A stretch of 64,000 nucleotides of DNA from contig JBMFRC010000001.1 of assembly GCA_049968235.1 (NCBI GenBank), positions 32,001 to 96,000 of the forward strand, given 5' to 3'. The DNA is from Candidatus Hydrogenedens sp. (GTDB lineage: Bacteria > Hydrogenedentota > Hydrogenedentia > Hydrogenedentales > Hydrogenedentaceae). Positions 10,246-43,230 of this stretch are shown here, piece by piece. The stretch's first letter is position 1. Every line of letters starts with the position of its first letter. The translations under genes and the position numbers were made by a program. The notes beneath the pieces are model-generated. The model worked only from the letters and a program-made list of their open reading frames with translations. It had not been told where the DNA came from and ran no database searches.

Positions 10246-11190
10246 TTATAGAATCCCTTTAAAGTATTCAATCGTATATTTCAACCCTTCCTTAAGCGGA
10301 ATTTTTGGTTCCCAGTTCAGTTTTTCTTTCGCAAGAGAAATATCTGGTTTTCTTCGACAGGGGTCGTTTTCGGGTAGGGGTTTAAAAATAATTTCCGAAG
10401 ACGAACCTGTCATCTCACAAACTAATTTTGCCAATTCCAGAATAGTAAATTCTCCGGGATTCCCTAAATTTACAGGACCGGTAAACCCTTCACAATCCAT
10501 CATCCGAAGGATACCTTCAATTACATCGCTAATGTAACAAAAAGAGCGTGTTTGAGAACCATCTCCGAAGACAGTTATGGGTTCGTTTCGCAATGCCTGC
10601 ACAATAAAATTACTGACCACCCTTCCATCATTAATCAACATGCGAGGACCGTATGTATTAAAGATTCGTATTACACGAATGTCCACTCCATTTTGACGAT
10701 GATAATCAAAAAACAAAGCCTCCGCCACACGTTTGCCCTCATCATAACAACTACGTTTGCCAATAGGGTTCACATTGCCCCAATAGGTCTCAGGCTGAGG
10801 ATGCACAGTAGGGTCTCCGTAAACTTCTGATGTACTGGCTTGTAAAACGCGCGCCTTCACCCGTTTTGCCATACCCAATACATTTAACGCTCCCATAACA
10901 TTGGTTTTAATCGTTTTTACTGCATTGAATTGATAATGAACTGGTGAAGCCGGACACGCTAAATTAAATATTCGGTCTACTTCAAGAAGGATGGGTTCGG
11001 TTATATCATGGCGAATAATTTCAAATTGTGGATGCCCTATTATGTGCTGAATATTTTGTTTCCTACCTGTAAAAAAATTATCCAGGCAAATAACTTCCTC
11101 CCCGCGTCGCAATAAAGCCTCACACAAATGTGAACCGATAAAACCTGCCCCACCTGTAACTAAATTTACTCGTCTCATATCTTGCTCCAA
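10246..11190 (-). CDS. UDP-glucuronate decarboxylase / NAD-dependent sugar epimerase-dehydratase (UXS-like SDR)
   Basis: [37 protein letters not shown]… The Rossmann GxxGxxG and extended SDR fold are typical of UDP-xylose synthase. Confidence 0.8.
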
Positions 11191-11229
11191 ACAAGTCTGT
11201 TCTTTACTATTATATGATTTTTTCCCCGA

Positions 11230-11739
11230 TTATCCCAATTCCGAATGTATGAATGCTTCCCAATTTATTTTCACCACACCTTTTTTTACCGTTATTGGTT
11301 TGTTATGAAAACAAATTCCTGCACCATGCACCTCCCCGGGAAACAAAACCATAAATTGACCCGGCACATTTTGAATTACATTTATCTTGGATACATCTAC
11401 ATTATAAAACCTAACATCTTTTTTAATATCATACTCGGTTTTCACTTGAGCCATAGATTCAGGAAGCCATCCTATACCTTCTTCCCCTGAAAGTGAGAAT
11501 TGGACATCAATAAATTTCTTATGTGATTCAAAAATCGCTTCCGAAATTTCTTTTGTGGTATAGGACATAACCCGGGCTTTTATATCTTCTTTATAGATAA
11601 ACTCCATATCTGTATCCGGGCTATTTTCTTTTAGTCCCTGAATATAATTCAATACGAAATTTCCTATCTTCCCACGGAAATACCGTTCCCAATTTTCAAA
11701 TCGGTCAACTATCATGATTTTAACACCTCCTCGCAACAA
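11230..11739 (-). CDS. YhcH/YjgK/YiaL (DUF386, EbgC-like) family protein
   Basis: The N-terminus MIVDRFENWERYF… and the length (169 aa) fit DUF386. Confidence 0.5.
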   Translation of the reverse strand: MLRGGVKIMIVDRFENWERYFRGKIGNFVLNYIQGLKENSPDTDMEFIYKEDIKARVMSYTTKEISEAIFESHKKFIDVQFSLSGEEGIGWLPESMAQVKTEYDIKKDVRFYNVDVSKINVIQNVPGQFMVLFPGEVHGAGICFHNKPITVKKGVVKINWEAFIHSELG

Positions 11740-12476
11740 GCAGTGCGTATTTTCTTTGCAAAGGACACACCCGGAATATCATAAATTTTTACAGTCCCCC
11801 CTGCAAATTTTATTAAAGCAGAACCACCTGCAATATCCCATAGCATAATTTCATCTTGAATAAAAGCGTCAATCCGACCACAGGCTACATAAGCCAGAGA
11901 TAATGCAGATGTACCTAAAAAACGAACCCTTTTATACTTCTTTAATTCATGGATATATTGCTGAAATTCATTTTCCGTATATGGACGAAACACCGGAAGT
12001 CCTGTGGCAACAATTCCATGCTTCGCCTGATTTATAGGGGAAACCTTGATGGGACTATCATTTAGGAATGCACCATTTTCCTTTGTTCCCGAAAATAATT
12101 CTTGTTTCAGAAAATCATAAACGATACCCAGTAAAAATTCATCATCTTTCATAAGAGCAATTGAGATAGCACACAACGGTATTTTCCTGCTGAAATTCAA
12201 TGTTCCATCCAATGGGTCAATTATCCAGAAAGGCTCATTCATAACATATTCACGAACCCAACCTCGTTCTTCAGATAAAATAGCAAATGGTGTCGATTCC
12301 AGCACATCTATAATTGCAGATTCAGATTCGCGGTCTGCCAGTAACTTTATGTCTCGGTCGTCTTCATAAATAACTTCGCAGGGCTCTCGAAAAAGGTCTG
12401 ATAAAATAATACCTGCTCGATGTACTGCGGTAATACCTAATTCTAAATATTCCTGAACATTCATTATAAACACCAC
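11712..12476 (-). CDS. Inositol monophosphatase family protein (IMPase/SuhB/CysQ-like)
   Basis: WIIDPLDGTLNFSR (DPxDGT) and the C-terminal WDIAGG motif. Confidence 0.8.
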   Translation of the reverse strand: MVFIMNVQEYLELGITAVHRAGIILSDLFREPCEVIYEDDRDIKLLADRESESAIIDVLESTPFAILSEERGWVREYVMNEPFWIIDPLDGTLNFSRKIPLCAISIALMKDDEFLLGIVYDFLKQELFSGTKENGAFLNDSPIKVSPINQAKHGIVATGLPVFRPYTENEFQQYIHELKKYKRVRFLGTSALSLAYVACGRIDAFIQDEIMLWDIAGGSALIKFAGGTVKIYDIPGVSFAKKIRTACCEEVLKS

Positions 12477-12477
12477 C

Positions 12478-13146
12478 TTAATGGTATAAATTTTTACCCC
12501 GTTTCTGTGCTATAAAAGTACTGATAATATGTGTAATGATACAGAATACATCTTCAACGGGTCCGTATTCATCTTTCGTACTTGCAACAAGAAGTCCATA
12601 ATCACATAACGAAATCATTCTACCTCCGTCACAACCTGCTATACCTATCGTTTTAATTTCATGCTCCTTTGCCCATTCCACTACCTTTATAACATTGGGA
12701 CTATTCCCACTAACAGACATTGCTATTAATAAATCACCTTCCTTAGCAAAAGCACGCAATTGCCCAATAAATATGTTTTCATAACCTTCATCATTTCCTA
12801 ATGCAGTAATTACCGCCTGGTTATCTGATAAATTTATAGCACGAATAGGCGGACAATTTGTAACATAATTTCCTACGACCAAATCATTAACCCAATGAGA
12901 GAGGACTGAAGAACTACCACCGTTACCCGCAAGAAATAGGGTCTTCCCTTCACTGATTTTATTCCACATTACATCGGCTATTTTTGTTAACACATCTTTA
13001 TTTAAATGCGTAAGAATTTGGCACAAACGTTCACAATACCCATTATAGTAATCAGTAAAACTGGGAGATGATTGAAACAAATTTTTCATGAAATACATAT
13101 AAAATACTCCGTAGATTATTGTTAAAAAGATATTTAATTTTAACAT
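12478..13146 (-). CDS. SIS-domain protein, phosphoheptose isomerase-like (GmhA family)
   Basis: LFLAGNGGSSSVLSHWVNDL… and DLLIAMSVSGNSPNVIKVVEWAKEHEIKTIGIAGCDGG. The true start may be at an internal Met (MKNLFQ…). Confidence 0.7.
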   Translation of the reverse strand: MLKLNIFLTIIYGVFYMYFMKNLFQSSPSFTDYYNGYCERLCQILTHLNKDVLTKIADVMWNKISEGKTLFLAGNGGSSSVLSHWVNDLVVGNYVTNCPPIRAINLSDNQAVITALGNDEGYENIFIGQLRAFAKEGDLLIAMSVSGNSPNVIKVVEWAKEHEIKTIGIAGCDGGRMISLCDYGLLVASTKDEYGPVEDVFCIITHIISTFIAQKRGKNLYH

Positions 13147-13763
13147 GTTAAATCTAAAATACCTACGAATATTGTTATCACATTCCTTAATGCATAAACA
13201 AAAATAAATACAGGAAACAGTATAAGATATGCTAAATACAGGAGCAAATTATCTTTGCCCCGAATATAGCACAAGCATTTATTCCTTCTTTTGCAATTAT
13301 AAGTGGTGCGATTATTTTAATTTATCAGAGTAATACAATTATCCTGCTTTTGATAAATTCAATTTATTAATTAGCACCGGCATTTCTCTCTTTGCTTTTT
13401 ACCACGAATGGTGCGAGATGTAAATAAGCATAAAGTATTTATTATAGCAAATGATTATTCGCCATTACATAGAGATGCACTTGCCATGCAGGCGGGTTTT
13501 TGGAATGTGTTGGTAAAAATCGTTTCTGTCTGGCAGGACTTTCAGCAAGACAATGAGATAATTTTCACCACGGAGGACACGGAGGGACACATAGATATTT
13601 TTTTCTTATCACAGAAAGCACGGAGAACACAGAGAAGGGAACAGAGAATAGGTATGAGTATGGATATATTTATTCTATGATTTATATTCTCCTTTCCTTT
13701 TTTCTCTGTGTTTCTCTGTATTCTCTGGGGTGGAGTATTTTTTTTCTCACCACAGAGAGCACT

Positions 13764-14021
13764 ATCTTTTCTTGTTAATGACTGCATATAATTTGAAGTG
13801 GATATATGAGGAATTAAGGGGGCAAAAGGAGAAGTATGCATAGGTAACCAAAAGATAAAAATACTCACAGAAAATAACAAATAAAATGGGTAAAAGTAGG
13901 GATACAGACTTTTGTATTTTAATTTTTCATCGGGATTTTATCTCATAAAAACATGTATAATTTATACTCTTACCTCTTACCTCTTACCTCTTACCTCTTA
14001 CAAAAATTGTTCAGAGGTCTC
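13764..14021. repeat. ~250-bp repeated intergenic element, copy A; sits in the leader position 3' of cas2
   Basis: Aligns at ~85% identity with 40693-40926 (…tcttgttaatga(c/t)tgcatataatttgaag…ggaattaaggg…gcaaaaggaga…atgcatag…acaga…ttgtattttaattt…attttatctcataaa…aattgttcagaggtctc). Ends 10 nt before the cas2 stop codon. Confidence 0.8.
13967..14001. repeat. Microsatellite (CTCTTAC)x5 inside element copy A
   Basis: Five perfect tandem heptamers. Copy B has unrelated sequence at the corresponding position. Confidence 0.9.
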
Positions 14022-14031
14022 GTGTATTTTT

Positions 14032-14358
14032 TTATACTATAATAAGGTTGGGGTTTGAGATGGGTGTATAGTAGTTTAGTCCGTTTCTGTTGATAATTTT
14101 GATTTTATTTGCATCAGCATGGCAAAGGGGTATGATATGTATAATAAGTTGTCGGTTTTGGTCATTGGGTTGTTCGTTGGAGAGGTAATCACGAATGGTT
14201 TCCTGTAGTTTTTCGATAAGGAGTTCTTTTTCATATTCATCGAGGTCGCCCATGAAAACGGAGAATTGTATGTGCGAAGTTCCTACTTCTTCGAGGAGGT
14301 AGGTTATTTTGTTTCGTAGTTTATCGTTTCCTATGTCGAATAATAGTAGTGTTTGCAT
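14032..14358 (-). CDS. cas2: CRISPR-associated endoribonuclease Cas2
   Basis: MQTLLLFDIGNDKLRNKITYLLEEVGTSHIQFSVFMGDL… fits the canonical Cas2 N-terminal beta1-Asp/alpha1/beta2 pattern. 108 aa. Confidence 0.75.
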   Translation of the reverse strand: MQTLLLFDIGNDKLRNKITYLLEEVGTSHIQFSVFMGDLDEYEKELLIEKLQETIRDYLSNEQPNDQNRQLIIHIIPLCHADANKIKIINRNGLNYYTPISNPNLIIV

Positions 14359-14371
14359 AGGTTGATTTGTG

Positions 14372-15340
14372 TTATAGGTTGTATTTATTTTGTTGATTTA
14401 GGGTTTGTGTTAGTTTTATGGCTGCGAGCAGGATGTGTTTTTGGTAGTTGGTATTGGGGTCTTTGGGGGTAGGTTCATAGAGGCGTTCTATGTAAAGGGA
14501 GGAGAGTTTTTTTGTGTTTCTTTTTCGAGTAATCCGTTTTTCTGGAGTTGTACATTTATTCCTTGTCGTATGTAAGCGAGTAAGGGTGTATCGATGAGGG
14601 GTTGACGGAAAGGTTCGATAAAGAAGACGAGGGACTGTTTGTTGTTCTGTAGGGTGTGCAGAAACCCTGCATATGGGTCGAGTCCGGCGAGGGTTAAGGC
14701 ACGGAAGCATTCGGAGTAGAGGATGCCGTAACCGTAGTTGAGTGCAGAATTGACGGGGTCTTTCGAATGTCGGTGTGTTCTGTGGGTAAAGTTATAATTG
14801 GCTGGGATAAGTTGTTTGAAATATGACCAGTAGATGGATGAGGCGTGTGCTTCGGTGGACATGATTTGTTGTTTTGCGTGGGATATATTTTCAGTGTTGA
14901 TGGATTTTAATTTTTCGATGAGTGGGTAAATAGTATTGTGAAGTGTATCTTCGATTTGGGCTAAGTATGTTTTGTATCGACACAGGAATTAGAATTGGTT
15001 TTCGATTTTTGTTTGTATGTATTTTTTTGGCAATTTGTATGCCTAAGCCGTTCTGGATGGCTGTGTATTGGTTCCATCGGTTCTGGATATGGGGGTGATT
15101 GTATATAGGCTGGATAAAAGTGATGGAGTTCCCGTAGGGCTTACATACGGTTAAGGCGATGTCTTGCTGGCTTGCGAGTGAAAGTGCTTCAGCGGAGATG
15201 GAAAATCCTTGGGTGAAGATGATGATGTGTGAGAGTTTGCTGGATGGGATTGTTTTAAGGGTTTTGTTTTCGCCGATAATTTTGAACATGTTTTTGTGTC
15301 TACCGACACGGATATTCTTTTCAATAAGGATGAGATGCAT
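14372..15340 (-). pseudogene. cas1: cas1 pseudogene (two or more frameshifts)
   Basis: N-terminal fragment 14891-15340 (MHLILIEKNIRVGRHKNMFKIIGE…GFSISAEALSLASQQDIALTV… fits the Cas1 N-domain). Middle fragment 14488-14862 in another frame (…DPVNSALNYGYGILYSECFRALTLAGLDPYAGFLH…SLVFFIEPFRQPLID… fits the Cas1 catalytic core). C-terminal remainder in a third frame. Total span about 323 codons. Confidence 0.7.
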
Positions 15341-15461
15341 GTTAAAGTCCTCCTCTTCATTATTTTTATTACATCTAACCTTAAAAAGTTGTATTATTTG
15401 CTATGTATTTAGTCCCAATCAATTTCGAGTTTGAACCAACCCATAGGAAGGGATGCCTTTG

Positions 15462-16643
15462 TTATTTTTTTTGTGATGTAGTTAATTTATGAGACTTTGG
15501 ATAAGGTATTTGGTCAGAACATCTGTCTCTCTTTGCTTTTCCCCATTTTTTGTCATTTGTATCTCCTTGTGAAAATAGTAATGTTATAGTTTTTGATAAA
15601 GAACCTGTGCCATAACCTAATTGTAAAAATATTTTTTTGCCTCTTTCTATCCTAATATCTTCAGGGATGTCATATTCATTTTTATTTACAGAATTAAAGA
15701 ATTCCAGTTGTTTATCAATTAAAATTTCTGAGTATTTGCGTAAACAATCTTGAAAACTCTGTGTATCGTTAAGAACATTTTTAAGATATTTTATCTATTC
15801 TCCGTTATTATATTTATATTCATCCAACATAAATTTTAATGCTTGTTGGTCTAAATAGAAATCTATAATTATTTCTTTACCTTTAGGAATCAGGCATTCA
15901 GCAAATATATCAAATGGTTTAGTTGAAAATTTGTCTCCATTTTTACTTTTTACTTTTATTTGACATATTCCAAAATTGTCGATAGGAATCTCTTTAGAGT
16001 CTCTGATTACTAAAAATTTAAATAAATCATATTTTGCATCATAATTCGAATTATCTACTTCTAATGTAGTATATTTTTCTATATTTTTATTAAGGAGAAT
16101 ATTATTAATATTATTTGACTCTTTAATTAAACAATTAGTGACTGCATTTCTTATACATCCCTTTATACTTGAACCTGGAATAAAAAATTTCCCAAATGGG
16201 TATTTTATAAAGGAAAGGATTGGAGGAAGAGAAGTAGATTCTTGACATATAGATTTTGACTGAGAATTTTGGGATTGTTTTTTCTCAACTTGTTTCTGTA
16301 TTTTTCTTAGTTCTGGAGGAAGTGCTGTATGTTTAGGCGATATGGACCTTGATTGTTTATTTGTTTTTTCTCCTCTTGTTCCAAAATCAGCATATATAGG
16401 AAGAGAATAGCGAATATATTCAGGGTCGGGACGAAAGGAGGGTTCTTCAATAATCTTTAAATCAGTTTCATAATCTTCGCAATTATCCTGAAAATATTTC
16501 ATGACATCTTTTAGACAGAATAATAGCTGTTTCTCGTCAATGTCAATGTAATATTCAAAATTCTGATATTCTTCGCCATCTGATATATGGATGGGAGTGA
16601 TAGGTGTTAGTTTGAATTTGCCATGTTTCTTTTTATCGTTCAT
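15462..16643 (-). pseudogene. csm5: Type III RAMP, Csm5-like (Cas7 group), interrupted by an in-frame TAG
   Basis: The N-terminus MNDKKKHGKFKLTPITPIHISDGEEYQNFEYY is Csm5-like. RAMP glycine loop IPGSSIKGCIRNAV. ORF stops at TAG 15795-15797. The same frame continues for 110 more codons (IKYLKNVLNDTQSF…ERGKKIFLQLGYGTGSLSKTITLL…) and contains a G-rich motif. AAGGAG lies 8 nt upstream of the ATG. Confidence 0.65.
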
Positions 16644-16656
16644 TGTTTTTCTCCTT

Positions 16657-17595
16657 TTAAGGATGTTTGAAATAGATATTGAATGCGAGACCGGAACGCC
16701 AGATAGGATGAGGTGATGAGTCGTAACTGATGGCGATTACATCCCCCTTAGGCATTTCTTTGATAACAGGGAATTTACTTCCTTCTATACACATACGAAC
16801 AGATTGTTTGGGTTCATCATACCCGGCAATGCCATGTATCCACCCACCTCGCATAGTGCATTCATAAGATGCGATATTGGTGAGAATACCATTTTCAAAT
16901 TCTTCCAAAGTAGGATGATAAAGACTGAGTATTGCGGGACTGAGTATTGCGGTAGCTTTTGGTGGACTTTCCTGCCCACTTATTTTGAGCGTATCATTTT
17001 CTTCAATAATATATTTTGATTCGAAAGGTTCAATTTTTTTATAGTAAAATGTCCGAAACCTAAACTGCGTTCACCACCAATACCCAGTTTACCCAAAGCG
17101 GATAGAAAATTGACAAATGATTCTTTTTTCTCTTCTTCTAATTTAACAAAAAACCACAATCCGACATCTTCTTCGCTATTTATCTCATAAAAATTTTGAG
17201 GGTAGGCTGTAGTTTGATTAGTAACCCGGTCAATGACGGTGGAAATTTTATAATTTTCTTTAACGGTTTTTTTGGAGGGGAAACCTTCTTTATTATTTAT
17301 CAGGTCATTCATTTCTTCATTCAGGAGAAAAGTTGTTCCTGGATTCTCTTCATCACCGTCTAAATAGGGATAATCTTCTTTTTTTTGGGAAAAGTTCTTT
17401 TAATATTTGCTGGGTTTCTTCTGCTTTTTGGAATATTGATGAAGTGGTTAGAAGAATGACATTATCAAAATCACCAATGTTAACAGAAGAAATAATCGGC
17501 CCCTATTGTGTTCCACCGGTGGGTGCTTCATCTACTCTCCCGTAAGGGTCATTTGTTCCTACAAAACTTAACAGTAGAGAAGATTTCCTCCCCAT
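16657..17595 (-). pseudogene. csm4: Csm4-like (Cas5 group) RAMP pseudogene, three frameshifts
   Basis: Segments: MGRKSSLLLSFVGTNDPYGRV…, then …GPIISSVNIGDFDNVILLTTSS…KELFPKK. Next the track's 110-aa ORF (…EDVGLWFFVKLEEEKKESFVNFLSALGKLGIGGERSLGFGHFTI), whose G-rich loop and context closely parallel Csm4. Then …KKIEPFES…MEEFENGILTNIAS… up to the stop at 16657. Two of the frame changes coincide with A8 and A7 homopolymers. A 15-bp tandem duplication lies at ~16926-16955. Confidence 0.5.
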
Positions 17596-17688: not shown

Positions 17689-18069
17689 TTATTTTTCGGG
17701 GAAAGAGGAGGGGTGGGAACCGATGGCGATAATACTGCAAGCGTAGATGGGATTTAAGTTGAGTTGGATTGCCTTTTGCATAAGTTCTTCGTCTTCCGCA
17801 CCGGGGTTGATGTAAAGTTCCTCATGCTTCTTTTTAGCGATTGAGGGTAAAAGTGTTTTGCCGATTTGGGGAGGGACATAGACACTGATACGGTCGATAG
17901 GCTCGGGGACCTCCTCAATAGATTTATAGCAGGGAATTCCTTCAATTTCTGTAAGGTTTGGATTGACGGGATAAACTGTCCATCCTCTGGCAATATATGC
18001 ACGAATAGCTTTGTTGCTATATTTGTTTTTGTCTGCAGATGCACCGATGATTGCAACCGTTTTAGACAT
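17689..18069 (-). CDS. CoA-binding domain protein (YccU/YneT-like), 126 aa
   Basis: MSKTVAIIGASADKNKYSNKAIRAYIARGWTVYPVNPN…IEGIPCYKS… The ATG at 18069 lies 4 nt after the clpP stop. The 253-aa track ORF is a spurious upstream extension overlapping clpP. Confidence 0.75.
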   Translation of the reverse strand: MSKTVAIIGASADKNKYSNKAIRAYIARGWTVYPVNPNLTEIEGIPCYKSIEEVPEPIDRISVYVPPQIGKTLLPSIAKKKHEELYINPGAEDEELMQKAIQLNLNPIYACSIIAIGSHPSSFPEK

Positions 18070-40223: not shown

Positions 40224-40692
40224 AGAATTTTTTTATATATGAGGCCTCTGAATAAAACATATACGATAAATAGTATATGAAAGTTTATATACAGGAAGGA
40301 TAAGGGAAAAAATGAAACGAAAGATGTATATATTTCACAAAAGGAATAGGTTAATTACACAGTAAAGAAAAAGTTAAATGGAGAAAGGTAAATGTGCGGT
40401 ACAATGAAAGAGGTAAAGCAGATGAGGTTTTTAGATTATGCAGTATCAAAACAGAAACCGACATGATGAGAGAAATAATTGAAAGTGATGCCAGAGATAA
40501 CCCTGTGGGAGAAATTGAAATGTAGATGAGTAGAGGGGAGTGTATAAATAAAACTGGGGATAGCGAAGGAGGTTTGTCCTTACTATTTTATGCATTGTTA
40601 ACCAGTGAGTGATGATTTCTTTTTGTTCTCTGTGGTTGATTATGTTTTTTACATTACGGAGAACACGGAGAGGCTCAGAAAGAGGAGTATAT

Positions 40693-40926
40693 CATTTCTT
40701 GTTAATGATTGCATATAATTTGAAGCGGATGTATGGGGAATTAAGGGAGCAAAAGGAGAGTTATGCATAGATAATAAAAAAATAAAAGAACTGACAGAAA
40801 ATAATAACCGAAATGGGTAAAGGTAGAAATACAGACTCTTGTATTTTAATTTCGTATGGGAATTTTATCTCATAAATAATTTATAATTTATACCCTAACC
40901 TTTTGCACGAATTGTTCAGAGGTCTC
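40693..40926. repeat. ~250-bp repeated intergenic element, copy B
   Basis: ~85% identical to 13764-14021 and ends with the same aattgttcagaggtctc. Lies between the convergent xylB and the 764-aa gene. Lacks the (CTCTTAC)5 tract. Confidence 0.8.
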
Positions 40927-40935
40927 AAATATTGT

Positions 40936-43230
40936 TCAGGTACTTGCATACTGGCGCAATTCTTGTAAAATTGTGGAAAGGCGTTCTGATGTTTTTTCGA
41001 TATAAGGGAGAAATCTTTTTCCTTTTCCTTCACGAACCCCCATACGATATTCCGTAAATTCACCTGCTAATTTTAAGACCTCTTCTTTATATTTATCCAC
41101 AATAGTATTTTTTCCCTCACTTAATAAACGACACAAGACACCATCACAGGCACATAAAATAGCCCCAACCTCAAAAAGTTTCCCCCGTACTTTATATATA
41201 TCTTCTATTGTATAAAGGGTATTCGTTACTTGATTTTTTATTTCTACCATTTTTTGTAAGGTATTCATGGATTGTTTTTCTTTTAATTCTCTTATCCTAT
41301 CTATTATTTTTTCTACCGATGGTAAATAGGGTTTAAGTAGTTCAACATTAATTGAAATTTGTTGCTCAATATAATCAAAAATTCGATACATAATTATCTC
41401 TCCCCAACGCTGGCATTCTTCGGGAGTAGCAATAAGAATAATTTGTCCCTGTCCGGGAAACATTTCGCGATGGAAAGAGGGAGGTAGTTCTTCCCACTGG
41501 TAAGAACGGACAAATTGAGTAGCGTCGTATGCACGATATTGTTCCGGTAAAGCGGAACGGAAATTAATATTAACCCCTGTTACTTCTGATGTGTCTTGAT
41601 TTACAAGATAAAACAACCAGAAATTTTCTCCTTTCATCCATGTATGAATTAAAATATCAACATTATCGGGACATCTTGAACGAGGATGTTTCCGTGATTG
41701 GATATCCGGTGAAAAATCAGGAGGATTTGTAGGTTTTGCTGTCATCACTAACGAGGCAAGAGAGTAGAAGCATCCTAACCTCCCTCCTAATTCCTGCCAG
41801 ACATCACTGAAAGTCAGGAAAGGTCCTGTTAAAGAACGCTGACATTCACCTCCTGACCATAGCGGTATATTATGGTATGTATAACTTAGCCATCCGCGGA
41901 CACCGCTGGATATTGCCAAATTGACCATAAGTCGTATTTCTGGCGCAGAATTCCAAATAGGGGCGCCGGAACCAAAAACAAATGCGGGACCAATTGCCCA
42001 TAAATGTTGCCCATTAACAAATTTTATATGGGTTTTAAGGACATGTCCTAATTCCCATGGAGTTTTTGATTTCCAATGACTTATCCCGGAAATTGAAGAA
42101 AAGGGAGCGTATACGGGGAAGGCATTGGCTTCTCGTGTAAGGTAAATGACAGGATGTTTTTCATCTATCTGTTCAATTTTCTTTTTGATTTGTATATAAG
42201 CATCTACTTCCGAATCGGAGGGATTTTCTTTGATTACCCATCCGAACAAATTATCTTCGGTAGAATATCTTTTAATAGAATGCTCTTTTTCTTTGATAAA
42301 TGATGCTGTCTTTGTAGGTTCCAGGAGTACGGTTTCTTCTTCTAAAGAAATGATTAATTTAATATTGTGTTTTTTAGAGGTTTCAAAGAGTACTTCCTGG
42401 TCTCCTGGCAGGAATTCATAAAATCTTTCTACAAAGGCAACATTATGATAATGTAGAGACATATCTTCAAATAATAAATCCAGATAAGAAGATAGGTCTA
42501 TTTTCATAAGATGGGACATATTTCGGGCTGTATTAGCATTGATATAGGTTCCTATCGGAAAGAAATTATCCAGGACAGGATAATGAATCGGTTTTTCATT
42601 GGCGGATGGTAAAATATCTTTTTTGTTGAGCAGGTTTCTTTCTCTTTCCGTAGGTTCTCGAAAGCGTATACTGCGAATATACATTGTCTCTTTTGTTCTT
42701 GTAAATGAATATAAGCGGAGAGCAAAGTTTTCCATCTTTCTCGGGAAACTATTGAAACACCATGCCCTTGCTACTGTAATCCATTTAAAATCCATATCGA
42801 GGAATTCAAAAAATTGACCTGTTGTATAGTGCCATGTCCATGCGGGAAGACATTTACCATATTGCATACGATAGGATATTTCAACAATGGGGTGTTTGTT
42901 CTGTGCTATAGGGAAATGGGGAACAGAACTTGTTCGAGTGCTTAATGGAACCCAGTAACTGGGTCTTTCCATGTCTTTTAAAAAATTTAATCTGCGTAAT
43001 CCAGTAAAATCACCCGTCCATCGTAGAACTTTTTCTCCATCTATTTCATCTATCATCTTTCGGGCAGGGATATCTTTCCACTCCTGTTCTCCCGGGTCAT
43101 CTTCCTGGGACCATTTCATCAAATCTTCTGCATAAAATGTAATATTTGAACATCTCTCCCGTTCTTCTAAAGTTGGCGGTTCTTTGATTTTGTTTAGAAG
43201 TCCTTTGTAAATATAATATTCGTTTTCCAT
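40936..43230 (-). CDS. Hypothetical 764-aa protein, possibly a carbohydrate-active enzyme (next to a sugar ABC transporter)
   Basis: No signal peptide and no family recognisable by eye. Genomic context (permease plus sugar-binding protein) only. Confidence 0.35.
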   Translation of the reverse strand: MENEYYIYKGLLNKIKEPPTLEERERCSNITFYAEDLMKWSQEDDPGEQEWKDIPARKMIDEIDGEKVLRWTGDFTGLRRLNFLKDMERPSYWVPLSTRTSSVPHFPIAQNKHPIVEISYRMQYGKCLPAWTWHYTTGQFFEFLDMDFKWITVARAWCFNSFPRKMENFALRLYSFTRTKETMYIRSIRFREPTERERNLLNKKDILPSANEKPIHYPVLDNFFPIGTYINANTARNMSHLMKIDLSSYLDLLFEDMSLHYHNVAFVERFYEFLPGDQEVLFETSKKHNIKLIISLEEETVLLEPTKTASFIKEKEHSIKRYSTEDNLFGWVIKENPSDSEVDAYIQIKKKIEQIDEKHPVIYLTREANAFPVYAPFSSISGISHWKSKTPWELGHVLKTHIKFVNGQHLWAIGPAFVFGSGAPIWNSAPEIRLMVNLAISSGVRGWLSYTYHNIPLWSGGECQRSLTGPFLTFSDVWQELGGRLGCFYSLASLVMTAKPTNPPDFSPDIQSRKHPRSRCPDNVDILIHTWMKGENFWLFYLVNQDTSEVTGVNINFRSALPEQYRAYDATQFVRSYQWEELPPSFHREMFPGQGQIILIATPEECQRWGEIIMYRIFDYIEQQISINVELLKPYLPSVEKIIDRIRELKEKQSMNTLQKMVEIKNQVTNTLYTIEDIYKVRGKLFEVGAILCACDGVLCRLLSEGKNTIVDKYKEEVLKLAGEFTEYRMGVREGKGKRFLPYIEKTSERLSTILQELRQYAST

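What the first reader, a model, noticed from the sequence alone, without database searches (positions are those of the whole stretch)
14030..15345. cas1-cas2 segment is compositionally alien: plus strand ~75-80% G+T, C under 10%
Across the cas1-cas2 span (about 14030-15345) the plus strand is mostly G and T. In a 100-nt sample near 14400-14500 I count roughly G 39, T 40, A 14, C 7. Flanking DNA, including the adjacent csm4/csm5 remnants and the leader-like element, is ordinary AT-rich sequence with balanced strands. The skew starts and stops at the cas2 stop and the cas1 start. The encoded proteins are correspondingly enriched in His, Thr, Pro, Gln, Asn and Lys (A/C-rich codons). This suggests either an adaptation module acquired separately from a donor with extreme strand bias, or strand-specific transition hypermutation (G-to-A and T-to-C on the coding strand) confined to this segment.
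Basis: seen in the sequence. Interest (0 to 1): 0.6.

Follow-up and report, generated by a model that had tools for sequence, protein, structure and literature searches.

The report
Strand-skewed dead cas1-cas2 module, inherited
The oddly G+T-rich stretch is the dead remnant of a CRISPR spacer-acquisition module (cas1-cas2) whose lopsided base composition is shared by every related copy of these genes in Hydrogenedentes bacteria, so it was not caused by a burst of mutation in this genome; why this gene lineage is so lopsided is still unexplained.

Summary
Plus-strand G+T is 67.6% over 14030-15345, against 51.0±3.1% elsewhere (z=5.4). C is 10.7%. The 75-80% figure holds only for a 200-nt peak.

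The skewed segment (14007-15299) matches cas1 start to cas2 stop. It is the remnant of a decayed type III-A CRISPR-Cas locus in a Candidatus Hydrogenedens MAG. cas1 is a pseudogene, cas2 is still an open frame, csm4/csm5 are fragments, and rtcR, cas10, csm2, csm3 and the array are gone.

At least eight orthologous cas1-cas2 loci from other metagenomes share the skew (sense-strand A+C 0.60-0.71, G about 0.10). There the genes are intact and under purifying selection (dN/dS 0.05-0.15). The skew sits in C- and A-ending codons and G-poor first positions.

On the window's own branch there is no G-to-A or T-to-C excess. Changes run slightly the other way and show relaxed constraint. Private hypermutation is therefore rejected: the skew is an inherited trait now decaying.

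Its origin is unresolved. One lineage (L012/L021, L004) shows mitochondrion-like silent sites (C 0.55-0.62, G about 0.01) next to unskewed host genes. Either the locus came from a strongly strand-biased replicon, or a mutational process tied to the locus produced the skew.

The parts
14007..15299 (-). Maximum-scoring A+C-rich (sense-strand) segment. This is the compositional island itself, with A+C .683.
   Evidence: Log-odds segment search; composition.
14346..14545 (+). Peak of the skew.
14372..15340 (-). cas1 pseudogene. The frame-repaired translation is 69-78% identical to intact orthologues of 324-326 aa.
   Evidence: TIGR00287 196 bits and PF01867 204 bits; frames; orthologues.
15022..15030 (-). 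Frameshift 1. There is one extra base at the A-run (7 A on the sense strand where orthologues read 6). The run length differs in the second assembly, L016.
14989..14991 (-). In-frame stop TAA where orthologues have CAA (Gln), a C>T change on the sense strand.
   Evidence: Shared by L016, which shows no difference here.
14623..14626 (-). Junction of a 3-nt deletion that removes the conserved Asp codon of the FDFIEPFR motif.
14508..14511 (-). Frameshift 2. One base is missing after an A-run (CAAAAA-AACTC against CAAAAACGACTC).
   Evidence: Shared by L016.
14032..14358 (-). cas2. The 108-codon ORF is still open and has the same length as the orthologues, but it is evolving under relaxed constraint (dN/dS .22 against L005, compared with .08 among intact copies).
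   Evidence: PF09827 39.7 bits and TIGR01573 35.9 bits.
15795..16643 (-). csm5 remnant of 282 aa (orthologues are 423-486 aa). It is not skewed (A+C .565).
   Evidence: TIGR01899.
16657..17312 (-). Two csm4 fragments (16657-16908 and 16980-17312).
   Evidence: TIGR01903 and PF17953.
17279..17375 (.). Deletion junction. Relative to the syntenic relative L001, about 6 kb is missing here (rtcR, cas10, csm2, csm3 and the 5' part of csm4).
   Evidence: Synteny blast; gene map of L001.
13763..14031 (+). Non-coding element abutting the cas2 stop where relatives have a leader and CRISPR array. A second copy (85% identical) lies at 40690-40936. It marks the right-hand end of the island on the sense strand.
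   Evidence: No CRISPR repeat is present in the window.

Best explanation
What it is (shown). The segment is the non-functional adaptation module of a decayed type III-A CRISPR-Cas locus in a Candidatus Hydrogenedens genome. It consists of a cas1 pseudogene and a cas2 that is still an open frame.

Where the skew comes from in this genome (shown). The skew was not made here. It is an inherited trait of a Hydrogenedentes-specific cas1-cas2 lineage. Every orthologue carries an A+C-rich, G-poor sense strand, seen as C-ending and A-ending codons and G-poor first codon positions. The orthologous proteins stay intact under strong purifying selection. In the window's lineage the effector genes and the array were lost, cas1 accumulated two frameshifts, one stop and one codon deletion, and the composition is now drifting passively back toward the host's.

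How the trait arose (inferred). I think the most likely cause is a long-acting strand-asymmetric substitution regime working under purifying selection, of the same kind as in vertebrate mitochondrial DNA or on the lagging strand of strongly biased bacterial genomes. In that regime the sense strand moves toward C and A, which equals loss of C and A on the antisense strand, the pattern expected from deamination. The mobile type III-A island would have experienced this regime in a strongly strand-biased replicon or genome before or between its chromosomal residences. Chromosomal copies such as this one would then be ameliorating relics.
For: Anatomy of the locus:
- Profile matches and frame analysis identify cas1, cas2, csm5 and csm4 pieces.
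- The syntenic relative L001 has tig-clpP-CoA-rtcR-cas10-csm2-5-cas1-cas2. L002 and L005 have arrays downstream of cas2.
- A second assembly of the same species (L016, 99.5% identical) shares the stop, the second frameshift and the codon deletion.

The skew is shared by the whole lineage:
- Sense-strand A+C is .596-.713 and G is .09-.13 in cas1/cas2 of L001, L003, L004, L005, L008, L009 and L018.
- C3 is .30-.60 against about .15 in the csm and host genes of the same loci. G3 is .04-.09. G1 is about .17 against about .29.
- NNC codons make up .64-.86 of pyrimidine-ending pairs, against .2-.36 in host genes.
- Among intact copies dN/dS is .045-.17.

No private hypermutation in the window's lineage:
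- On the WIN branch G>A 3 against A>G 10, and T>C 10 against C>T 12. 66% of changes fall at codon positions 1 and 2, against 27-35% in intact lineages.

Decay toward host composition in other lineages:
- L018 shows C>T 27 against T>C 4, and A>G 22 against G>A 0.
- L001 shows C>T 20-24 against T>C 4-8.
- L003 shows C>T 25 against T>C 1.

Timing is compatible with a relic:
- Housekeeping dS between WIN and L001 is 1.1-1.4, similar to cas2.

The locus is mobile:
- The island sits in different neighbourhoods in WIN/L001, L018, L019, L012/L021 and L017.

A strongly biased Hydrogenedentes background exists:
- L017 has a general GC skew of about +.25. One segment there has a 4-fold composition (G .42-.57, C .01-.05, T .29-.42, A .10-.16) that mirrors L012 csm5 and L004 cas1 (C .55-.62, G about .01).
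Against: - No donor or intermediate was found. An exhaustive HMMER search finds nothing between about 70% and 37% identity, and there are no plasmid, phage or viral-contig relatives.
- Four-fold sites are close to saturation between the three subclades (identity .35-.47 against .30-.38 expected at random), yet all three remain C-rich. This fits better with a bias that was maintained for a long time than with a single import.
- The L012 cas1 fragment shows the opposite flux (T>C 7 against C>T 2). In L012/L021 the whole operon is skewed, rising toward the 3' end (cas10 .63, csm4 .66, csm5 .71, cas1 fragment .75-.78), beside unskewed host genes. That looks like a process tied to the locus.
- Parsimony polarisation on near-saturated, compositionally biased sites is error-prone.
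Confidence: 0.55

Rival explanations
1. A mutational process tied to the locus and with a polarity. The antisense strand of the array-proximal end of the type III-A operon would be exposed as single-stranded DNA unusually often, for example through antisense transcription with R-loops on the G-rich strand, or through replication forks stalling head-on against the operon. That strand would then accumulate C>T and A>G, which on the sense strand reads as G>A and T>C. The skew would be generated in place and would be maintained wherever the locus is active.
For: - The skew persists in all subclades although 4-fold sites are near saturation.
- In L021 the skew rises along the operon toward the 3' end and stops abruptly at the deletion junction, with unskewed host genes next to it.
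- In L008, L009 and L004 the skew extends into csm5.
- The untranslatable cas1 fragment of L012 is the most skewed piece (A+C .73-.79) and shows T>C exceeding C>T.
- In L017 a mirror-image composition affects unrelated genes (topA, recombinase). This argues for a DNA-strand process rather than codon selection.
Against: - The skew starts and stops at gene ends. The csm5-cas1 spacer and the native leaders of L005 and L002 are not skewed.
- orf90, inserted between cas1 and cas2 in L001, has host-like third positions (C3 .15).
- WIN, L001, L003 and L018 show net flux away from the skew.
- No mechanism is known that produces this sign for sense transcription.
- There are no canonical G4 motifs.
- The only promoter-like match pointing antisense into cas2 (14010-14038) is at chance level.
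Confidence: 0.22
2. Selection on the coding sequence. The cas1-cas2 genes would be selected for C-ending 'optimal' codons and for a G-poor, unstructured mRNA, for example for efficient translation or for control by Rho, which loads on C-rich, G-poor RNA.
For: - The boundaries coincide with the two coding sequences.
- In this genome C-ending codons are also favoured in likely well-expressed genes: clpP .43, a pyruvate-phosphate-dikinase-like gene .40 and the small CoA-binding gene .64, against a background of about .22.
- Cas1 and Cas2 are the most conserved proteins of the locus (86-89% identical between L001 and L018, against 45-81% for the other proteins).
Against: - Host genes rich in NNC codons do not avoid G-ending codons or G at first positions.
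- The skew changes amino-acid composition (Val 0.31x, Gly 0.59x).
- It is strongest in an untranslatable cas1 fragment.
- It covers cas10 to csm5 in L021.
- It appears mirror-imaged in other genes of L017.
- The cas1-cas2 genes are normally weakly expressed (established knowledge).
Confidence: 0.08
3. Private strand-specific transition hypermutation of this copy. A deaminase-like or editing-like event would have converted G>A and T>C on the sense strand in this genome only.
For: - Relative to host codon usage, the synonymous shifts are indeed T>C and G>A in direction.
- cas1 is inactivated.
Against: - All orthologues share the composition with intact ORFs.
- There is no directional excess on the window's branch.
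- The inactivating lesions are two indels at A-runs, a 3-nt deletion and one C>T stop, not a load of G>A/T>C changes.
- The three SNPs against the second assembly are A>C, C>A and A>G.
Confidence: 0.02
4. Ordinary replication-associated strand bias. The genes lie on the lagging strand and simply show the genome's keto/amino skew.
For: - At 4-fold sites most plus-strand genes of the window have G>C and most minus-strand genes have C>G, so the sign agrees.
- The amino-acid shift resembles that of lagging-strand proteins in strongly biased genomes (established knowledge).
Against: - Neighbouring genes on the same strand have C4 .14-.27 and G4 .05-.16, against C4 .36-.43 and G4 .03-.07 in cas1-cas2.
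- No other gene in 64 kb comes close; the z-score is about 5.
- In L012/L021 the host genes are unskewed (C4 about equal to G4) while the operon is extreme.
Confidence: 0.05

Closest known systems
Strand asymmetry of vertebrate mitochondrial DNA, where deamination of the strand left single-stranded makes sense strands A+C-rich and G-poor (established knowledge, not re-checked here)
   Same: - The direction and magnitude at silent sites match (C much greater than G, A greater than T; G about .01-.07 at 4-fold sites).
- Proteins stay functional under purifying selection while their amino-acid composition shifts.
- One lineage shows a positional gradient.
   Different: - Here the skew is confined to a 1.3-7 kb chromosomal operon with sharp borders and ordinary flanks.
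- No asymmetric replication mode is known for it.
- Transversions toward C also contribute (A>C 15 against C>A 2 at third positions on the L004 branch).
Replication-strand codon and amino-acid bias of strongly skewed bacterial genomes such as Borrelia (established knowledge)
   Same: - Lagging-strand genes are enriched in A/C-rich codons and depleted in Val and Gly.
- The sign agrees with the window's silent-site skew.
   Different: - That bias is genome-wide and much weaker. Here only one module is affected, and neighbours on the same strand are not.
Horizontally acquired compositional islands and their amelioration (established concept)
   Same: - Composition is atypical with sharp borders.
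- The locus occupies different neighbourhoods in related genomes.
- There is net flux toward host composition in several lineages.
   Different: - Classical islands differ in G+C content, not in a breach of strand parity.
- No donor was found.
- The skew survives near-saturating synonymous divergence.
Enzymatic or editing hypermutation, such as APOBEC-type G>A, ADAR-type A>G and fungal RIP (established knowledge)
   Same: - At synonymous sites, the composition differs from the host's in the direction of strand-specific transitions.
   Different: - Those processes are private to a copy, destroy reading frames and leave a directional excess against close relatives. None of this is seen here.
Cas1/Cas2 adaptation modules of type III-A (Csm) CRISPR-Cas systems
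   Same: - The profile matches, the gene order csm5-cas1-cas2-array in relatives and the conserved Cas1 motifs all agree.
   Different: - This Cas1 clade is isolated. The nearest other Cas1 among about 15 billion proteins is 34-37% identical.
- In the window it is a pseudogene without effector genes or an array.

Membership tests
Cas1 (PF01867 / TIGR00287) | Profile match above the curated cut-off | tested here: met
   The frame-repaired translation scores 196.1 bits (cut-off 71.7) and 204.4 bits (cut-off 22.3).
Cas1 (PF01867 / TIGR00287) | Uninterrupted ORF of about 325 codons | tested here: not met
   Two frameshifts, one in-frame TAA and one codon deletion. All but one frameshift are shared with the independent assembly L016.
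Cas1 (PF01867 / TIGR00287) | Full set of conserved metal-binding residues (Glu, His, Asp/Glu motif) | tested here: not met
   The Glu of (I/T)EAHAS and the His of GFLH are present. The invariant Asp of FDFIEPFR is deleted. Assignment of these residues to catalysis rests on general knowledge of Cas1.
Cas2 (PF09827 / TIGR01573) | Profile match and an intact ORF of orthologous length | tested here: met
   39.7 bits (cut-off 23.8) and 35.9 bits (cut-off 24.5). The ORF is 108 aa, as in all orthologues. dN/dS is raised (.22 against .08), which suggests relaxed constraint.
Functional type III-A (Csm) CRISPR-Cas locus | cas10/csm1 and csm2-csm5 present and intact | tested here: not met
   Only csm4 and csm5 fragments remain. 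The syntenic relative L001 has about 6 kb more.
Functional type III-A (Csm) CRISPR-Cas locus | CRISPR array next to cas2 | tested here: not met
   No repeat family was found, and the relatives' repeat has no match within 3 mismatches in the window. Arrays are present in L002 and L005.
Strand-specific hypermutation of one copy (APOBEC/ADAR/RIP-like) | Directional excess of G>A and T>C on the branch to this copy | tested here: not met
   G>A 3 against A>G 10, and T>C 10 against C>T 12, using sites unanimous in L018, L001, L005 and L003 as the ancestor.
Strand-specific hypermutation of one copy (APOBEC/ADAR/RIP-like) | Close homologues lack the composition | tested here: not met
   All orthologues have sense-strand A+C .60-.71.
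Horizontally acquired compositional island | Atypical composition with sharp borders | tested here: met
   z = 5.4, and the segment 14007-15299 matches the gene span 14032-15340.
Horizontally acquired compositional island | Net substitution flux toward host composition (amelioration) | tested here: met
   AC>GT against GT>AC is 28 to 16 in WIN, 54 to 5 in L018, 27-36 to 6-15 in L001 and 37 to 10 in L003. The method is parsimony on divergent sequences.
Horizontally acquired compositional island | Donor, or phylogenetic incongruence with neighbouring genes | tested here: inconclusive
   No donor was found. Between L001 and L018, identity is 89% for Cas1 but 45% for Csm5 and 79% for Cas10, so the locus is mosaic, but this does not show a clean module swap.
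Replication-associated strand bias | Neighbouring genes on the same strand show comparable skew | tested here: not met
   Neighbours have C4 .14-.27 against .36-.43, and A+C .50 +/- .04 against .66-.68.

The most novel reading that the evidence does not exclude
Type III-A CRISPR-Cas operons of Hydrogenedentes would be subject to a strand-asymmetric mutational process tied to the locus, with mitochondrial-type loss of C and A on the antisense strand. The cause could be recurrent single-strandedness from antisense transcription and R-loops, or from head-on fork stalling at the array-proximal end. Such a process would drive silent sites to C:G ratios above 50:1 within a few kilobases of an otherwise unskewed chromosome. 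The window would hold a relic left after the locus died.
Probability: 0.2. Interest if true: 0.75.

Novelty: new variant of a known kind. Interest (0 to 1): 0.42.

Why it matters
For this window the result is mainly corrective. The segment is a decaying CRISPR adaptation module, and its odd composition is inherited, not a sign of targeted hypermutation.

The wider pattern is unusual. A cas operon lineage keeps near-mitochondrial strand asymmetry at silent sites, with sharp borders, beside ordinary chromosomal genes, across species whose synonymous sites are almost saturated.

If the skew is generated in place, it would be a natural example of extreme, local, strand-specific mutation pressure in a bacterial chromosome. 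It could be tested with metagenomic SNP spectra and strand-specific transcriptomes. If it was imported, it points to an unsampled, strongly strand-biased replicon or lineage that exchanges CRISPR-Cas modules with Hydrogenedens.

Practically, such islands can mislead HGT detectors and inflate apparent protein divergence. The nearest Cas1 outside the clade is only about 35% identical.

Tried and rejected
- **Sequencing or assembly artefact.** Rejected. An independent assembly (L016) is 99.5% identical over 4.8 kb, and eight loci from other samples and pipelines share the skew.
- **A second cas1-cas2 copy in the window for direct comparison.** None exists. The repeat at 40690-40936 is only the non-coding element.
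- **The element left of cas2 as a CRISPR leader.** It does not align with the leaders of L005 or L002 beyond a short CACAGAGAA-like motif. No array is present.
- **Rfam.** Only a tRNA reached the gathering score. Sub-threshold hairpin-like hits fall at 13602-13736.
- **Search for a donor.** I searched viral contigs, PLSDB plasmids, the phage collection, GTDB genomes, JGI metagenomes and 1.84 billion protein representatives. Nothing lies between about 70% and 37% identity.
- **Literature.** No report of strand skew in cas1-cas2 or of Hydrogenedentes type III loci turned up in two searches.
- **Amino-acid replacement paths against outgroup Cas1.** These show loss of G in all directions (G>A 35 against A>G 3, but T>C 6 against C>T 8.5). 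The comparison is confounded by the higher G+C of the outgroup hosts, so I did not use it as evidence.
- **Elevated recent divergence inside skewed segments.** L012 against L021 gives 4.7 against 1.1 substitutions per kb, and all 3 SNPs between WIN and L016 fall in cas1-cas2. However, 11 of 13 L012/L021 differences cluster in two short tracts of csm4 near a contig end, which looks like strain mixing or recombination. The three WIN/L016 SNPs have no common direction. I did not take this as evidence of hypermutability.
- **G-quadruplex motifs on the G-rich strand.** None found.
- **Antisense promoter.** One promoter-like match (14010-14038, plus strand) is at chance level.
- **Long antisense ORFs,** such as the 186 aa ORF over the L012 cas1 fragment. 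These are expected by chance because the antisense strand is A-poor and all stop codons contain A.
Full report
**1. The observation**

Over 14030-15345 the plus strand is A .217, C .107, G .298, T .378, so G+T is 67.6%. Every other 1316-nt window of the 64-kb sequence gives G+T .510 ± .031 with a maximum of .574, so the segment lies 5.4 sd out. G is higher, and A and C lower, than in any other window of that size. The 1-kb bin 14001-15000 has GC skew +.485 and AT skew -.267, the only such bin in the window.

But 75-80% G+T and C below 10% describe only the peak, which is .78 in the 200 nt starting at 14346. They do not describe the span.

A log-odds search for the best A+C-rich segment on the minus strand returns 14007-15299. 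The genes run from 15340 (cas1 start) to 14032 (cas2 stop). Flanks are ordinary, at .48 and .555 G+T. Verdict on the observation: real, exceptional within the window, delimited by the two genes, but overstated in magnitude.

**2. What is encoded**

All genes discussed here lie on the minus strand.
- cas2 (14032-14358) is an open 108-codon frame matching PF09827 and TIGR01573.
- cas1 (14372-15340) matches PF01867 and TIGR00287 strongly only after frame repair. It has four lesions:
  - an extra base at an A-run (15022-15030);
  - an in-frame TAA (14989-14991) where orthologues have CAA;
  - a 3-nt deletion (about 14624) that removes the invariant Asp of FDFIEPFR;
  - a missing base after another A-run (about 14509).
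- Upstream lie a truncated csm5 (15795-16643) and two csm4 fragments (16657-17312).
- There is no CRISPR array.

Exact-sequence look-ups name the organism as a Candidatus Hydrogenedens sp. MAG with a 421-kb contig. A second assembly of the same species (L016) is 99.5% identical over 4.8 kb. It shares the stop, the second frameshift and the codon deletion, and differs in the length of the first A-run. The pseudogene is therefore real.

**3. Relatives**

A search of 5.8 billion protein clusters finds four close Cas1 orthologues (69-78% identity, 324-326 aa, intact). The next hit is at 33%. An exhaustive HMMER scan of 1.84 billion representatives confirms the gap, with the next best at 34-37%.

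The contigs of these orthologues, plus a metagenome scan, gave loci L001/L002, L003, L004 (the same contig as L010), L005/L006, L008, L009, L011, L012, L013 and later L018 and L021.

L001 is syntenic with the window and carries tig-clpP-CoA-binding-rtcR-cas10-csm2-csm3-csm4-csm5-cas1-orf90-cas2. Housekeeping DNA is 80% identical to the window and cas1 is 75% identical. About 6 kb (rtcR to the 5' part of csm4) is missing from the window. L002 and L005 have CRISPR arrays 0.55-0.8 kb downstream of cas2.

The same island sits in other neighbourhoods in L018, L019, L012/L021 and L017. It is therefore mobile within the phylum.

**4. The skew is a family trait**

- Sense-strand A+C in cas1/cas2 by locus:

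| Locus | cas1 | cas2 |
|---|---|---|
| Window | .679 | .657 |
| L001 | .644 | .621 |
| L005 | .648 | .657 |
| L003 | .660 | .679 |
| L008 | .663 | .679 |
| L004 | .707 | .713 |
| L018 | .596 | .563 |

- G is .09-.13 in most of these copies (up to .16 in L018 cas2).
- For comparison, 35 other ORFs in the window have coding-strand A+C of .495 ± .036, with a maximum of .569.
- By codon position, C3 is .30-.60 against about .15 in csm and host genes. G3 is .04-.09. G1 is about .17 against about .29. Second positions hardly differ.
- Codon tables show NNC over NNT (TAC .68-.86 against .21-.25; AAC .65-.79 against .22-.29) and NNA over NNG.
- Relative to host proteins, the window's Cas1+Cas2 are enriched in His, Asn and Gln (about 1.9x). 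They are depleted in Val and Trp (.31x) and Gly (.59x). Thr, Lys and Pro are near 1.
- The intact orthologues are under strong purifying selection, with dN/dS .045-.17.

**5. Test of the hypermutation idea**

I polarised substitutions using sites unanimous in L018, L001, L005 and L003 as the ancestor. The window's branch then has G>A 3 against A>G 10, and T>C 10 against C>T 12. Overall GT>AC is 16 against AC>GT 28. Two-thirds of its changes fall at codon positions 1 and 2, against 27-35% in intact lineages, which indicates relaxed constraint. The only stop arose by C>T. The three SNPs against L016 polarise as A>C, C>A and A>G.

The predicted directional excess is therefore absent, and homologues share the composition.

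**6. Is the skew decaying or maintained?**

The same counting gives the following for other branches.

| Branch | Result |
|---|---|
| L018 | C>T 27 / T>C 4; A>G 22 / G>A 0 |
| L001 | C>T 20-24 / T>C 4-8 |
| L003 | C>T 25 / T>C 1 |
| L012 cas1 fragment | T>C 7 / C>T 2 |
| L004 (unrooted) | A>C 30 / C>A 10 |

Most chromosomal copies are losing the skew. One lineage is not.

The time scale is compatible with a relic in the WIN/L001 group. Housekeeping dS between WIN and L001 is 1.1-1.4, with 4-fold identity .43-.49 against about .30 expected at random, and cas2 is similar. Under the host's general substitution regime, roughly half of an ancestral deviation would survive. That would put the ancestor near the composition of L004 and L012.

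Between the three subclades, however, 4-fold sites are almost random (.35-.47 against .30-.38 expected), yet all remain C-rich. The bias must therefore have been maintained somewhere for a long time.

**7. The extreme lineage**

In L012 and its near-identical, longer counterpart L021, cas1 is a truncated, untranslatable fragment and cas2 and the array are gone. The csm genes are intact, and the whole operon is skewed, rising toward the 3' end:

| Gene (L021) | Sense-strand A+C |
|---|---|
| rtcR 3' end | .62 |
| cas10 | .63 |
| csm2 | .59 |
| csm3 | .58 |
| csm4 | .66 |
| csm5 | .71 |
| cas1 fragment | .75-.78 |

Four-fold sites in csm4 and csm5 are C .49-.57 and G .01-.05. The skew stops abruptly at the deletion junction. 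The adjacent host genes are unskewed, with C4 roughly equal to G4 at .12-.17. L004 cas1/cas2 have C4 .62 and G4 0-.01.

On a Csm5 tree, L012 and L004 are sisters nested among unskewed relatives. This composition resembles vertebrate mitochondrial sense strands (my own knowledge).

In L017, a Hydrogenedentes chromosome with a strong general GC skew of about +.25, a 5-kb segment just after csm5 (small ORFs, a split topA and a split tyrosine recombinase) has the mirror-image 4-fold composition: G .42-.57, C .01-.05, T .29-.42, A .10-.16. The phenomenon is therefore a property of DNA strands. It is not tied to cas1-cas2 codons or to the sense strand.

**8. Explanation**

*Shown.* The window holds a dead adaptation module. 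Its skew is inherited, shared by intact orthologues under selection, and is not growing in this lineage.

*Inferred.* The trait was produced by a long-acting strand-asymmetric substitution regime under purifying selection. The chromosomal copies in WIN, L001, L003 and L018 are ameliorating relics. I favour (0.55) the view that the mobile island acquired the composition in a strongly strand-biased replicon or genome of the same phylum. L017 shows that such backgrounds exist.

*Main rival (0.22).* A polar mutational process tied to the locus. This is suggested by the operon gradient and sharp junction in L021, by persistence through saturation, and by the extreme pseudogene fragment. It is weakened by unskewed spacers and leaders, by the host-like orf90 insertion in L001, and by the net decay in four lineages.

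*Less likely.* Codon or mRNA selection (0.08), generic replication bias (0.05) and private hypermutation (0.02), for the reasons listed under the rival explanations.

**9. Comparison with known things, and novelty**

The genes are members of Cas1 and Cas2 by profile. As a functional Cas1 or a functional type III-A locus, the window fails the tests of an intact ORF, the catalytic Asp, the effector genes and the array.

The composition works like mitochondrial or lagging-strand asymmetry, and partly like an ameliorating foreign island. It does not behave like editing or hypermutation. I found no description of such a skew in cas genes.

I rate it a new variant of a known kind. In this window it is a relic of modest interest. 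The lineage-wide pattern is odd and can be tested with population SNP spectra, non-stationary models and long-read metagenomes.

Noticed in passing
window 13763-14031 and 40690-40936: A non-coding element of about 270 nt is present twice in direct orientation (85% identity; similarity extends to 13948-14031 and 40874-40936). Each copy ends at the 3' end of a minus-strand gene (cas2, and the 764-aa gene at 40936-43230). The first copy carries a perfect CTCTTAC x5 tandem repeat (13967-14001). The orthologous junction between xylB and the 764-aa gene in L012 lacks the element, so it looks like an insertion.
   Followed up: partly
window 13602-13736: A long imperfect hairpin rich in CACAGAGAA/ACGGAGAA-like motifs gives only sub-threshold microRNA-precursor-like Rfam hits. 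A similar short motif occurs in the leader of L005.
   Followed up: partly
window 16923-16952: A perfect 15-nt tandem duplication (GACTGAGTATTGCGG x2) lies between the two csm4 fragments, overlapping the end of the upstream one. The second assembly of the same species (L016) has only one copy.
   Followed up: partly
L017:12400-17700: In a Hydrogenedentes chromosome, the segment after csm5 (two small ORFs, a topA split into 575 + 257 aa and a tyrosine recombinase split into 104 + 192 aa) has an extreme G+T-rich coding strand (third positions G .40-.51, C .01-.05). This is the mirror image of the skewed cas genes. GC skew also changes sign near L017:3200-4000, next to the CRISPR-Cas locus.
   Followed up: partly
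L001:1672-3192, L018:3014-4537, L019:3026-4555, L021:1-489: An RtcR-family sigma-54 activator gene lies immediately upstream of cas10 in all complete loci of this type III-A lineage. This suggests sigma-54/RtcR control of the csm operon. The gene is deleted in the window.
   Followed up: no
L001:11000-11272 (same as L002:2252-2524): A 90-codon ORF with no Pfam match is inserted between cas1 and cas2 in one lineage only. It is very G-poor (.095) but has host-like third positions (C3 .15). It may not be a real gene.
   Followed up: no
window 10246-13146: Three to four sugar-metabolism genes on the minus strand, just left of the CRISPR remnant, have G4 greater than C4. That is the opposite of most other minus-strand genes in the window, and plus-strand GC skew is about -.25 at 11-13 kb. 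This may be an inverted or foreign block.
   Followed up: no
window 17692-18069: The small CoA-binding-domain gene next to clpP uses C-ending codons as heavily as cas1-cas2 (.64 against a background of about .22) without being G-poor.
   Followed up: no
L012:1-770 vs L021:5053-5820: Eleven of the 13 substitutions between these two near-identical loci cluster in two tracts of about 50-60 nt in csm4, close to the end of the L012 contig. csm5 also differs by a 25-codon indel. This looks like strain mixing or recombination rather than point mutation.
   Followed up: partly
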